DNA of 64,000 bases from positions 36,534-100,533 of the forward strand of contig JACKGG010000003.1 in the NCBI GenBank assembly GCA_020632035.1. Direction: 5' to 3'. The translations under genes were made by a program, and so were the position numbers. Positions 32,886 through 33,917 of this stretch are shown piece after piece; positions within the stretch are counted from its first letter, which is position 1; every line of letters starts with the position of its first letter. A model generated the notes under the pieces. It saw only the letters and a program-made list of their open reading frames with translations. It did no database searches and was not told where the DNA came from. The stretch comes from Candidatus Nomurabacteria bacterium (GTDB taxonomy: Bacteria; Patescibacteriota; Minisyncoccia; Phycocordibacterales; UBA918).

Positions 32886-33514
32886 ATGTGTGCGAAAGTG
32901 TAAACAGATGTAGTTAAAGCAGTAGCGAATCATACCGCAGTGAGACATATTTTTAAGGAAGATTCATAATCTGACTATAAGAATAGTTAAGCGAGGACGA
33001 TGAGTCTCTGTTTAAATTACGTTTGCTAATTCCTCTACTACACCAACCATATCTGTACAGTAGAAGCAAACGGAGCATATTTTTAAAGGCTATTTCAGTA
33101 TGTACAAACAACACGAAACACAATTTTGTCAATGAAAAGTTATAAAGGACAGTTATCCCCAATGCTGTCCTTTACCATGTCCTTGAGGAAGAGTATATTA
33201 TTGGTAGGCCCAGAAAGGGCGAGCGGGAGACCCTAGAGAACTGACTAGAAAAAATTCCAATCAGTTCCCTAGGGTAACCCCTTAAAGTGATCTTCTAAAA
33301 ACAATTGAGTATTACCTCCAAGAATCGAAAGATTCTTAACTCAAACAAACGTTCAAAACATCCCACCCTAATAGAGATTCAGACACTGCAATCAACTAGA
33401 TAGCAAGGTCACAAAAAGAAATCTCTTACAACGTAGAGCTTCGGACAGAGTTAGCTTCAAACGTAGGCGCTCACTAGGATTACCATAATCCTCCAAAAAG
33501 AAAGCTCATACTAC

Positions 33515-33587
33515 AAGGCCTGAAGGCACCGGCAGCTGATCAATCCACCACACGATTGGCTCCCGATTCCTTCAGGCCTTTTTTTGT
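33515..33587 (+). terminator. long-stem rho-independent terminator
   Basis: aaggcctgaagg...(42-nt loop)...ccttcaggcctt + TTTTTTT. Confidence 0.55.
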
Positions 33588-33598
33588 TTGAGCAAAGC

Positions 33599-33626
33599 TT
33601 GACAAATAGAAACAAACATGTATAAT
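33599..33626 (+). promoter_or_regulatory. near-consensus sigma70 promoter (TTGACA-16-TATAAT) with no downstream ORF
   Basis: ttgacaaatagaaacaaacatgtataat. The next structure is the terminator at 33851-33886. Confidence 0.5.
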
Positions 33627-33632
33627 CTAGTC

Positions 33633-33886
33633 TAAAGTTGTTCATTTGGCCTGAAAACTGCCTGTGTAGGCAAGGAGGAAATTATGAGGAAATAGGACTA
33701 ATTGCTCCTCATGAGCACGGCACGTCAACGGTGTCGATAGCCGATCGGTTGATAAGGTAGCGGAGCACTGAAAAACCTGCACGCCTGATGGTCTACAGAC
33801 ATTCCATCAGGGTAGGCAGAAAGTAGGTCCTAAGCGGAAAAAGCTTCGACGGTCCCACCAGTAGTGATACTCGTGGGCCCTTTTTT
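33633..33886 (+). ncRNA. candidate ~250-nt small RNA (promoter-to-terminator unit, unknown family)
   Basis: Bounded by a consensus promoter and the hairpin ggtcccac...gtgggccc + TTTTTT. It contains only a 3-codon mini-ORF (aaggagg-N5-ATG AGG AAA TAG). It lies between convergent xth and cca. Confidence 0.35.
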
Positions 33887-33917
33887 ATGGTGAGTTGAGT
33901 CGTCTCATTGCTTATAT

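What the first reader, a model, noticed from the sequence alone, without database searches (positions are those of the whole stretch)
32886..33917. 1-kb gene-free interval between convergent xth and cca, with a promoter-to-terminator small-RNA unit
In a genome with mostly under-100-bp spacers, this interval has no ORF of 60 aa or more. It contains three structured elements. One is a hairpin at 33154-33187. One is a long-stem terminator at 33515-33587. The third is a near-consensus TTGACA-16-TATAAT promoter (33599-33626) that would drive a roughly 250-nt transcript ending at a hairpin/T6 terminator (33851-33886). That transcript contains only a 3-codon mini-ORF with a perfect Shine-Dalgarno. 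By eye I could not match it to RNase P, tmRNA, SRP or 6S consensus motifs.
Basis: seen in the sequence. Interest (0 to 1): 0.5.

Follow-up and report, generated by a model that had tools for sequence, protein, structure and literature searches.

The report
New structured RNA in CPR bacteria

Summary
The interval is real: xth-like gene 32073-32885(+), cca 33918-35390(-).

The main element is a + strand RNA gene, about 33206-33585.

- **Conservation:** it lies downstream of cca in 67 of 80 related species genomes and in 5 further relatives, one copy each. Variant forms occur in 4 more genomes.
- **Structure:** covariation supports about 74 base pairs. 93-95% of cells are paired, against 27-52% in slid controls, and 60 pairs show compensatory changes.
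- **Conserved motifs:** a hairpin loop UACCUCCAA that resembles the anti-Shine-Dalgarno sequence, plus unpaired CCCACCC and UCCUCC.
- **Promoter:** conserved -35 TTTACN, 17 nt, -10 TAnnAT. It is overlapped by a 9-mer operator (TGTCCTTTA/TAAAGGACA) and preceded by DnaA-type boxes at -63 and -53.
- **Identity:** Rfam 15, ARAGORN and literature searches give no match.

It recurs in only 1 of 85 related loci, so its function is open.

Function of the main RNA is inferred. I favour an anti-Shine-Dalgarno-mimic regulator or ribonucleoprotein RNA whose transcription depends on DnaA. No expression data were available.

The parts
33143..33151 (-). Operator 9-mer TAAAGGACA as read on the + strand (TGTCCTTTA on the - strand). 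It is the upstream arm of the inverted repeat that flanks the DnaA-type box.
   Evidence: Exact match. The same 9-mer occurs 3-4 times at this position in 76 of 80 related loci.
33153..33161 (+). DnaA-box-like TTATCCCCA (8 of 9 matches to TTATCCACA). Relatives carry two tandem boxes here; the window has lost one through a 12-nt deletion.
   Evidence: Boxes sit at fixed positions -63 and -53 in 44 and 43 of 68 loci. Two or more boxes occur in 31 of 68 loci, against 34 of 5418 background windows.
33166..33186 (+). TGTCCTTTA (33166-33174) and a second copy TGTCCTTGA (33178-33186). The -35 hexamer TTTACC (33171-33176) lies inside the first copy.
   Evidence: CTTTAC is invariant at this distance in 68 of 68 loci.
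33194..33199 (+). -10 hexamer TATATT, 17 nt after the -35 and 6 nt before the invariant AGGCCC.
   Evidence: TTTACC-17-TATATT. Relatives have TACTAT, TAGTAT, TAATAT or TATTAT at the same fixed distance.
33206..33585 (+). Conserved structured non-coding RNA gene, about 380 nt. The 5' end is inferred from the promoter and the 3' end from the terminator.
   Evidence: blastn and nhmmer show conservation in about 70 loci. Covariance models R1 and R2 score 130 and 135 bits in the window, with one sense hit per locus. Covariation is shown. Fold z = -8.9. No Rfam match.
33208..33220 (+). P1 hairpin GCCC-AGAAA-GGGC, part of the invariant 5' block AGGCCCAGARAGGGCGAGC.
   Evidence: Paired in 73 of 73 sequences, with one compensatory change (helix 1).
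33221..33283 (+). P2 long hairpin. It closes with GAG/CUU, which includes a near-invariant G.U pair, and has a variable tip.
   Evidence: helices 2-5: 21 of 23 pairs show changes on both sides.
33278..33289 (+). Near-invariant block CCCCUUAAAG(A/U)G. Its first six bases close P2 and the rest is single-stranded.
   Evidence: Conserved columns in the alignments.
33305..33345 (+). P3 hairpin UUGAGU/ACUCAA. It presents the invariant UAUUACCUCCAA, with ACCUCC at 33314-33319. In the window it also carries a GNRA-capped insert (33320-33337, AAGAAUC-GAAA-GAUUCUU).
   Evidence: helix 6: 5 of 5 pairs show double changes. TACCTCC is invariant. The insert covaries (L001 GGAUA-GCAA-UAUCC, L003 GAGUC-GAAA-GACUC).
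33362..33368 (+). Conserved unpaired C-rich motif CCCACCC, preceded by GUUCAUAACA.
   Evidence: It is kept even in the variant forms L066 and L077.
33373..33426 (+). P4 hairpin domain. The closing stem is AGAGAUU/AAUCUCU, with a conserved 3' internal loop CACAAAAAG.
   Evidence: A closing stem forms in all 31 sequences folded singly, with different sequences (for example UGGGAGUC/GACUCCCA and GGAAUC/GAUUCC).
33436..33507 (+). Three-way junction. The stem is GAGCUU/AAGCUC. It encloses the hairpin GAGUUAGC...GGCGCUC (33448-33472) and the hairpin GGAUUA-CCA-UAAUCC (33477-33491). Unpaired UCCUCC follows at 33489-33494.
   Evidence: Model R2, helices 1-4: 13 of 17 pairs show double changes.
33515..33585 (+). 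Three-tier terminal hairpin (33515-33580) with a U-tract (33579-33585). It is the 3' domain of the RNA and its intrinsic terminator.
   Evidence: -35.4 kcal/mol, z = -6.4. One search shows the same architecture in 50 or more homologues. helix 5: 20 of 25 pairs show double changes.
33599..33626 (+). Promoter of the second unit: TTGACA-16-TATAAT.
   Evidence: 12 of 12 matches. CTTGACA...ATGTATAAT is conserved in L002.
33633..33886 (+). Second, lineage-specific transcription unit, about 250 nt. It contains SD AAGGAGG (33672-33678), the mini-ORF ATG-AGG-AAA-TAG (33684-33695), the terminator hairpin 33851-33880 and T6 at 33881-33886.
   Evidence: The only homologue is in L002, where the ORF is 24 codons, so the ORF is not conserved. 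Absent from the other 84 related loci. No Rfam match.

Best explanation
**What is shown**

The interval contains two independent + strand non-coding transcription units in a Paceibacteria (CPR/Patescibacteria) genome.

Unit 1, about 33206-33585, belongs to a previously uncatalogued family of roughly 300-480-nt multi-domain RNAs. It is encoded once per genome, just downstream of cca.
- Its architecture is P1, a long P2, P3, P4, a three-way junction and a three-tier terminal hairpin that also serves as intrinsic terminator.
- Its promoter is invariant: -35 TTTACN, 17 nt, -10 TAnnAT. The 9-mer operator TGTCCTTTA/TAAAGGACA overlaps the promoter.
- Tandem DnaA-type boxes lie at -63 and -53.

**What is inferred**
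- Transcription is controlled by DnaA and by an unknown protein that binds the 9-mer. This would couple RNA level to replication status.
- The RNA acts through its invariant unpaired C-rich elements. These are the P3 loop AUUACCUCC (8 of 9 matches to the 16S 3' tail AUCACCUCC), CCCACCC and UCCUCC. I see two possible modes. It may pair with Shine-Dalgarno regions of mRNAs and damp translation initiation, as the C-rich loops of RsaE/RoxS do. Or it may act as a decoy or scaffold for a protein that recognises the 16S 3' tail.
- The large, conserved fold suggests a ribonucleoprotein rather than a simple antisense RNA.

**Unit 2**

Unit 2 (33599-33886) is a lineage-specific small RNA inserted in the variable spacer between unit 1 and cca. 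Its function is unknown.

**Confidence**

The value given (0.8) applies to the statement that unit 1 is a conserved, structured, independently transcribed RNA gene of a new family. The anti-Shine-Dalgarno-mimic and DnaA-dependent mechanism is at about 0.3.
For: **Conservation and synteny**
- blastn and nhmmer hits cover window 33105-33597 in 68 of 80 loci, always after cca.
- R1 gives exactly one full-length sense hit in 73 sources, with E-values from 1e-9 to 1e-38.
- All 5 extra relatives at 83-86% CCA identity carry it.
- Variant forms in L066, L074, L077 and L078 keep the promoter module and the terminal hairpin; L066, L074 and L077 keep a CCUCC-containing P3 loop (ACCUCC in L066 and L077), and L066 and L077 keep CCCACCC.

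**Structure**
- 5' domain: 94.5% of 2020 cells are paired, against 74.5% in shuffles and 27-52% when partners are slid. 27 of 32 pairs show compensatory changes.
- 3' domain: 92.9% are paired, against 80.1% in shuffles and 34-50% when slid. 33 of 42 pairs show compensatory changes.
- The P4 closing stem covaries in all 31 sequences folded singly.
- MAFFT plus RNAalifold, independent of any covariance model, already gave 17 of 26 covarying pairs in P2.

**Strand**
- The promoter lies upstream and the hairpin plus U7 downstream.
- GNRA tetraloops read correctly on the + strand only.
- A G.U pair is kept in 64 of 73 sequences.
- G.U outnumbers A.C 232 to 126 in paired cells.
- R2 scores 135 bits on the sense strand and 45 bits on the antisense strand.

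**Non-coding**
- No ORF longer than 36 aa lies within the RNA gene on either strand; the 69-aa ORF at 32953-33162(-) overlaps only the upstream operator module and is not conserved over most of its length.
- Insertions and deletions of variable length fall in hairpin tips.

**Promoter and operator**.

**No known family**: Rfam 15 at gathering threshold and at E up to 10, on the window and on 9 homologous loci; ARAGORN; literature searches.
Against: - There is no expression evidence of any kind. No RNA-seq was available, so the transcript ends are inferred.
- The alignments used for the pair counts were fitted to the covariance models, which inflates pairing somewhat. The related sequences also share ancestry.
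- Folding energy does not separate the strands (z = -8.9 on + and -7.4 on -).
- No enrichment of sequences complementary to the P3 loop or to CCCCUUAAAGAG was found in the window or in the loci. This gives no positive support for a base-pairing target near the gene.
- CCUCC pairing with GGAGG is generic and only 5-6 bp long.
- The window's own copy has a single, imperfect DnaA-type box.
- That these boxes bind DnaA, and that any protein binds the 9-mer, is assumed from consensus only.
- I could not check whether these genomes also carry canonical rnpB, ssrA, ffs and ssrS.
Confidence: 0.8

Rival explanations
1. The conserved 490-nt block is a DNA-level element rather than an RNA gene. It would be part of a replication origin or a DnaA-titrating locus, and its inverted repeats would act as DNA.
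For: - DnaA-type boxes and invariant 9-mer inverted repeats lie at its 5' edge.
- The same module (9-mers flanking DnaA boxes) recurs at 38826-38892, next to a parS-like palindrome.
- The cumulative GC skew of the window reaches its minimum at about 30-36 kb, and gene orientation switches near 36 kb.
Against: - The boxes and 9-mers occupy only the roughly 60 nt upstream of a canonical -35/-10 promoter.
- The 380 nt downstream show base-pair covariation with changing sequence: 60 of 74 pairs have compensatory changes. GNRA loops, G.U pairs and a U-tract terminator are also present. DNA-binding sites do not produce these features.
- The genes converge here, whereas origins usually sit between diverging leading-strand genes.
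- No dnaA or dnaN gene lies in the window.
Confidence: 0.05
2. Unit 1 (or unit 2) is a highly divergent copy of a universal housekeeping RNA (RNase P RNA, tmRNA, SRP RNA or 6S RNA) that the standard models miss in CPR bacteria.
For: - The size of unit 1 (about 380 nt) is in the range of RNase P RNA and tmRNA.
- It occurs as a single copy per genome across a whole clade, which is typical of housekeeping RNAs.
- CPR RNAs are often divergent.
- Unit 2 contains GGAGGAAA, reminiscent of the RNase P motif GAGGAAAGUCC.
Against: - No RNase P, tmRNA, SRP or 6S match appeared even at E up to 10 with permissive filters, in the window or in 9 homologous loci.
- ARAGORN finds no tmRNA.
- The consensus structure has no pairing between the 5' and 3' ends, so there is no acceptor stem or tRNA-like domain and no 6S rod.
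- It has no P4-type long-range helix, no ACAGAA...GGCUUA motif, no domain IV GNAR motif and no conserved tag ORF.
- Unit 2 occurs in only 2 genomes, which is incompatible with an essential RNA.
Confidence: 0.05
3. Unit 1 is not independent. It would be a long structured 3' UTR or processing product of the upstream xth mRNA, or a cis-acting buffer between the convergent xth and cca transcripts.
For: - It lies downstream of xth on the same strand.
- In L066, L074 and L077 the promoter module follows within a few to about 60 nt of the xth stop codon.
- Its terminal hairpin would also stop convergent transcription.
Against: - It has its own invariant -35/-10 promoter at a fixed distance from the invariant 5' block in 68 of 68 loci.
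- About 320 nt of non-conserved spacer separate it from xth in the window.
- Conservation of sequence and structure far exceeds what a terminator or spacer needs.
Confidence: 0.05
4. The reader's unit 2 (33599-33886) is the functional small RNA of the interval, or encodes a leader or micro-peptide.
For: - It has a perfect 12/12 promoter and a hairpin-T6 terminator.
- Promoter, 5' end and several blocks (AAGGAGGAAA, TAAGGTA, ATTCCA, CCTAAGCG) are conserved with L002 at 72% identity. By eye, helices are kept through different sequences, for example CUGCC/GGCAG against UGAC/GUCA, and UCAAC/GUUGA against CCAGC/GCUGG.
Against: - It is present in only 2 of 86 related loci and absent from the closest relative.
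- A pattern scan of metagenomes found only chance hits, and a scan of viral contigs found nothing.
- The fold is only marginally better than shuffles (z = -1.8).
- The ORF is 3 codons in the window and 24 in L002, so it is not conserved.
- Two sequences cannot establish covariation.
Confidence: 0.35

Closest known systems
RsaE/RoxS-type C-rich regulatory small RNAs of Bacillota (Rfam RsaE)
   Same: They present conserved unpaired C-rich motifs in hairpin loops and linkers that can pair with G-rich Shine-Dalgarno regions. They are stand-alone genes with their own promoter and intrinsic terminator, and a transcription-factor site sits at the promoter.
   Different: Unit 1 is about four times larger and has six structured domains with long invariant blocks. 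There is no sequence or covariance-model similarity. It comes from a different phylum. No targets were identified.
Large ornate bacterial non-coding RNAs of unknown or partly known function (OLE, ROOL, GOLLD, raiA motif)
   Same: These are several-hundred-nt, multi-domain RNAs. They have strongly covarying helices interspersed with invariant single-stranded blocks and are restricted to particular lineages. They were discovered by comparing intergenic regions.
   Different: There is no match to any of their Rfam models. Unit 1 is smaller than OLE, ROOL or GOLLD. It is found in CPR bacteria, has fixed synteny with cca, and has a promoter bearing DnaA-type boxes.
The 3' tail of 16S rRNA (anti-Shine-Dalgarno, ...GAUCACCUCCUUA)
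   Same: The P3 loop AUUACCUCC matches AUCACCUCC at 8 of 9 positions, and ACCUCC is invariant across the canonical family (30 sequences, 14 sequences).
   Different: The sequence is displayed in a hairpin loop of a separate RNA, not at a free 3' end. The resemblance rests on my own knowledge of the rRNA sequence. The 16S tail of these organisms was not examined.
DnaA-regulated promoters (for example the promoters of dnaA and nrdAB in E. coli)
   Same: Tandem TTATNCACA boxes lie one helical turn apart, just upstream of the -35.
   Different: The regulated gene is a non-coding RNA. The boxes are embedded between invariant 9-mer inverted repeats of unknown specificity. DnaA binding is untested.

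Membership tests
Bacterial RNase P RNA (Rfam RF00010/RF00011) | Scores against the family covariance model | tested here: not met
   No RNase P match at gathering threshold or at E up to 10, in the window or in homologous loci.
Bacterial RNase P RNA (Rfam RF00010/RF00011) | P4 long-range helix formed by GAGGAAAGUCC... and ACAGAA...GGCUUA | tested here: not met
   Neither motif nor any long-range helix appears in the consensus of unit 1. In unit 2 the GGAGGAAA has no complementary P4 strand, and it pairs locally with CCUC.
tmRNA | tRNA-like domain (5'/3' acceptor stem, T-arm) and a tag reading frame | tested here: not met
   ARAGORN finds none in the window and Rfam finds none. The 5' end is a local hairpin and the 3' end a local hairpin. 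No conserved stop codon or frame follows GUUCAUAACA.
SRP RNA (4.5S / large SRP) | Domain IV helix with a GNAR tetraloop and conserved symmetric and asymmetric loops; match to the family model | tested here: not met
   No Rfam match. The apical loop of the terminal hairpin is 3-16 nt and variable.
6S RNA | A single long rod closed by 5'/3' pairing, with a large central bubble; match to the family model | tested here: not met
   No Rfam match. The supported structure is a string of six local domains.
RsaE/RoxS C-rich small RNAs | Unpaired C-rich motifs that pair with Shine-Dalgarno regions | tested here: inconclusive
   Motifs are present and unpaired in the consensus: ACCUCC in the P3 loop, CCCACCC and UCCUCC. 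Pairing to targets is untested, and no enriched complementary sites were found.
RsaE/RoxS C-rich small RNAs | Homology (family model, about 100 nt, two hairpins) | tested here: not met
   No Rfam match at E up to 10. The RNA is about 380 nt.
OLE / ROOL / GOLLD / raiA large non-coding RNAs | Match to the family covariance models | tested here: not met
Sigma-70-type promoter plus intrinsic terminator (independent transcription unit) | -35 and -10 hexamers with a 16-18 nt spacer upstream; G+C-rich hairpin followed by a U-tract downstream | tested here: met
   Unit 1: TTTACC-17-TATATT, conserved in 68 of 68 loci, and hairpin plus U7. Unit 2: 12/12 promoter and hairpin plus U6. Actual transcription cannot be tested with these tools.
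DnaA box | 9-mer TTATNCACA; bound by DnaA domain IV | tested here: inconclusive
   The consensus is met exactly in 45 of 68 relatives, at fixed positions -63 and -53. The window's copy is TTATCCCCA (8 of 9). Binding is not testable here.

The most novel reading that the evidence does not exclude
Unit 1 is a clade-wide, essential-like ribonucleoprotein RNA of Paceibacteria that displays a mimic of the 16S rRNA 3' tail. It would titrate Shine-Dalgarno-bearing mRNAs, or a factor that binds the 16S tail. DnaA and an origin-associated protein that binds the 9-mer would switch on its synthesis. It would thus be an RNA that directly couples chromosome replication status to translation initiation in bacteria with minimal genomes.
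Probability: 0.15. Interest if true: 0.85.

Novelty: categorically new. Interest (0 to 1): 0.7.

Why it matters
CPR/Patescibacteria make up a large share of bacterial diversity. They have tiny genomes and few known regulators, and almost nothing is known about their non-coding RNAs.

A roughly 380-nt RNA with six covarying domains and invariant single-stranded blocks, kept as a single copy in at least 70 species, belongs to the same class of finding as OLE, ROOL and raiA. Such RNAs have repeatedly turned out to be ribozymes, ribonucleoprotein scaffolds or global regulators.

The invariant loop that resembles the anti-Shine-Dalgarno sequence and the promoter bearing DnaA-type boxes give two concrete, testable handles on function.

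"Categorically new" applies at the level of RNA family: there is no detectable relation to any of the 4227 Rfam families. The general category of bacterial structured non-coding RNA is of course known, and the mechanism may prove conventional.

The conserved 9-mer (TGTCCTTTA) and DnaA-box module, shared with a probable origin-proximal site, is a lead for origin and cell-cycle control in CPR bacteria.

Tried and rejected
**Known RNA families.** Rfam at gathering threshold on the whole window found only four tRNAs. Rfam at E up to 10 on the interval and on homologous loci found only miRNA and lncRNA noise. ARAGORN found no tmRNA.

**RNase P reading of unit 2.** I considered this because of GGAGGAAA and GCAGAAAGUAGGUCCUAAG. 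I rejected it because there is no P4 complementarity, no Rfam hit, and only two genomes carry the unit.

**tmRNA-like tag after GUUCAUAACA.** Rejected: no conserved frame or stop codon.

**Alignment methods that failed.**
- MAFFT plus RNAalifold on full-length or 3' segments failed because of misregistered variable hairpins. I replaced it with two covariance models and single-sequence folds.
- mafft-qinsi is not installed.

**Homologue searches for unit 2.**
- Viral-contig scans for both units found nothing.

**Target search by complementarity.** There was no enrichment. The one perfect 12-mer, at 43371-43382, is probably chance.

**Strand assignment from folding energy.** It was not informative.

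**Exact-protein look-up of xth.** It is not on record.

**Two-sequence RNAalifold on unit 2.** It is uninformative.
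Full report
**1. The observation**

The window comes from a CPR/Patescibacteria genome of the Paceibacteria type. The 490-aa PolyA_pol + HD protein at 33918-35390(-) is identical to an NCBI "Candidatus Nomurabacteria bacterium" protein on a 139-kb contig. Its 80 best relatives all come from Paceibacteria, Kaiserbacteria or Nomurabacteria metagenome-assembled genomes.

An Exo_endo_phos (xth-like) gene at 32073-32885(+) converges on it, leaving 1032 nt between them.

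- a 12/12 TTGACA-16-TATAAT promoter at 33599-33626;
- a hairpin plus T6 at 33851-33886;
- a long hairpin plus T7 at 33515-33585;
- the SD plus three-codon ORF.

Two details are wrong. First, there is a 69-aa TTG ORF at 32953-33162(-), though it is not conserved. Second, 33154-33187 does not fold by itself. The real inverted repeat is at about 33143-33174.

**2. What is conserved**

I ran blastn of the interval against 80 related loci fetched through the cca protein. There were strong hits for 33105-33597 in about 70 loci, always just downstream of cca, down to 63% CCA identity.

Alignment showed a block with an invariant 5' start, AGGCCCAGARAGGGCGAGC. Helices change sequence but keep pairing. 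GNRA tetraloops are readable only on the + strand. The block ends in a hairpin plus U-tract.

**3. Structure**

MAFFT plus RNAalifold on 30 sequences gave 17 of 26 pairs with compensatory changes in P1 and P2.

I then built two covariance models.
- **R1 (P1-P2-P3, 158 positions).** It found exactly one full-length sense hit in 73 sources. The window hit is 33204-33371 at 130 bits. On that alignment 94.5% of cells are paired, against 74.5% in shuffles and 27-52% when partners are slid. 27 of 32 pairs have double changes, across 366 cells.
- **R2 (three-way junction plus terminal hairpin, 149 positions).** It scores 135 bits at 33428-33583, against 45 bits on the antisense strand. On 46 sequences 92.9% of cells are paired, against 80.1% in shuffles and 34-50% when slid. 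33 of 42 pairs have double changes.

The middle domain, P4, closes with a stem of differing sequence in all 31 homologues folded singly.

These alignments are fitted to the models, so the percentages lean high. The slid controls and the model-independent result argue that the signal is real.

**4. Strand and ends**

The + strand is supported by several lines of evidence:
- the conserved promoter upstream;
- the U-tract terminator downstream;
- the GNRA loops;
- a G.U pair present in 64 of 73 sequences;
- G.U outnumbering A.C 232 to 126 in paired cells;
- the sense/antisense score gap of R2.

Folding energy does not discriminate between the strands.

The 5' end (A33206) is inferred from a -10 element at a fixed 6-nt distance. 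The 3' end is inferred from the U-tract at 33579-33585.

**5. Promoter and operator**

Across 57-68 homologues the upstream architecture is fixed. From upstream to downstream it reads:
- the palindrome TGTCCTTTA|TAAAGGACA;
- about 10 nt;
- two tandem boxes matching TTATNCACA at -63 and -53;
- TGTCC followed by the -35 TTTACA;
- 17 nt, which contain another 9-mer copy;
- the -10 TAnnAT;
- 6 nt;
- AGGCCC.

CTTTAC is invariant in 68 of 68 loci. Two or more boxes occur in 31 of 68 loci, against 34 of 5418 background windows. The window has lost one box through a 12-nt deletion and keeps TTATCCCCA.

The 9-mers never covary. The same arrangement (9-mers flanking DnaA-type boxes) recurs at 38826-38892 in the window and at an equivalent site in many loci. 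I therefore read them as protein-binding DNA sites.

**6. What it is not**

- Rfam 15 gives nothing, at gathering threshold or at E up to 10, on the window and on nine homologous loci that include the variant forms.
- ARAGORN finds no tmRNA.
- The supported topology is six local domains with no pairing between the 5' and 3' ends. This excludes the tRNA-like domain of tmRNA, the 6S rod and the P4 core of RNase P.
- There is no domain IV motif as in SRP RNA.
- No ORF is conserved.
- Seven full-text literature searches found no description.

**7. How it may work (inferred)**

The most conserved unpaired elements are C-rich:
- the P3 loop UAUUACCUCCAA, in which ACCUCC is invariant in the canonical family and is kept in the variant forms L066 and L077, with L074 keeping CCUCC;
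- CCCACCC;
- UCCUCC.

AUUACCUCC matches the 16S 3' tail AUCACCUCC at 8 of 9 positions. That comparison rests on my own knowledge of the rRNA sequence.

The simplest mechanism is occupation of Shine-Dalgarno sequences, as the C-rich loops of RsaE/RoxS do. The alternative is mimicry of the 16S tail for a protein that binds it.

The size and the invariant blocks (AGGCCCAGARAGGGCGAGC and CCCCUUAAAGAG) point to a ribonucleoprotein. The promoter suggests control by DnaA.

I found no enriched complementary targets, so this mechanism remains at about 0.3.

**8.

The stretch 33599-33886 has a homologue only in L002. It is absent from L001 (90% CCA identity), L003, 77 other genome loci and 5 extra relatives. 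Metagenome and viral pattern scans found nothing real.

The spacer between the unit 1 terminator and the cca stop codon is variable, from about 60 to 700 nt. In L091 it holds a 185-aa gene instead.

With L002 the promoter and several blocks are conserved, and some helices appear to be kept by different sequences. The ORF is not conserved (3 codons against 24). Two sequences cannot establish structure.

It is a plausible lineage-specific small RNA and no more than that.

**9. Distribution**

- R1 or R2 hits occur in 69 of the 80 species-representative genomes.
- Variant forms are visible by inspection in 4 more (L066, L074, L077, L078).
- Four loci end too close to cca to tell.
- Three loci (L029, L048, L071) have at least 740 nt downstream of cca but no element there.
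- No second copy occurs in the 64-kb window.

**10. Verdict**

The finding is real and more interesting than stated, but for a different unit. It is a new family of large structured RNA in CPR bacteria, with an unusually informative promoter. Expression and function remain untested.

Noticed in passing
window 38826-38961: There is a cluster of DnaA-type boxes (TGTGGATAA, GGTGGATAG, GGTGGATAA, ATCCACA). The same 9-mer inverted repeat flanks it (TAAAGGACA 38853-38861, TGTCCTTTA 38884-38892). A parS-like palindrome AGTTTCACGTGAAACA follows at 38940-38955. All of this lies in a divergent intergenic region. The window's cumulative GC skew is lowest at about 30-36 kb and gene orientation switches near 36 kb, so this may be the oriC region. 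No dnaA or dnaN gene is in the window.
   Followed up: partly
window 33106-33133: The motif AACAACACGAAACACAATTTTGTCAA lies upstream of the operator module. It is conserved in the closer relatives (L001-L016) but not in distant ones. Its purpose is unknown.
   Followed up: no
L066:7455-8355, L074:3055-3955, L077:5546-6446, L078:7467-8367 (reverse strand of the loci): These loci carry variant forms of the RNA. L066, L074 and L077 have P1 GGCCAUAAAGGCU (or a close variant), no long P2, a P3 loop that still contains CCUCC (ACCUCC in L066 and L077), the same promoter module and a three-tier terminal hairpin; UCCCACCC is kept in L066 and L077. L078 is more remote, with GCCUC in place of ACCUCC. Model R1 misses all four.
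   Followed up: partly
window 43371-43382 (+): A perfect 12-nt complement (TTGGAGGTAATA) of the P3 loop lies inside the DUF5667 gene, downstream of an ECF-type sigma factor gene (41774-42418). An exact 12-mer is expected about 0.01 times in the window. No enrichment of such sites was seen in the related loci, so it is probably chance.
   Followed up: partly
window 33944-33952 and loci at about 7439-7447: The 9-mer TGTCCTTTA also occurs inside the last codons of cca. In several relatives it occurs again just after the stop codon (for example L001 7439-7447 and 7471-7479). This could reflect a coding constraint or a further binding site.
   Followed up: no
L091:4515-5072; window 33586-33917: The spacer between the RNA terminator and the cca stop codon is a variable insertion spot. 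It is about 60 nt in L003 and holds unit 2 in the window and in L002. In L091 it holds a 185-aa gene with no Pfam match.
   Followed up: partly
window 33287-33296 and 33350-33358; alignments: Within the RNA, two similar (not complementary) short motifs change in parallel between lineages: AGAG(A/C/U)(U/A)C(A/U)U and G(U/C)(U/A)CAU(A/C)A. Examples are GAGCACAU with GCACAUAG, and GAGAUCUU with GUUCAUAA. They could be a repeated recognition element.
   Followed up: no
window 32953-33162 (-): A 69-aa TTG-initiated ORF overlaps the operator module. It contradicts "no ORF of 60 aa or more". Most of it lies in sequence that is not conserved in relatives, so it is probably spurious.
   Followed up: partly
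window 36855-37523 (+) and L089:1269-1937: A 222-aa protein with an N-terminal HTH_23-like domain is a conserved neighbour of the second 9-mer/DnaA-box site. It is a candidate, with nothing more behind it, for the factor that binds the 9-mer.
   Followed up: no
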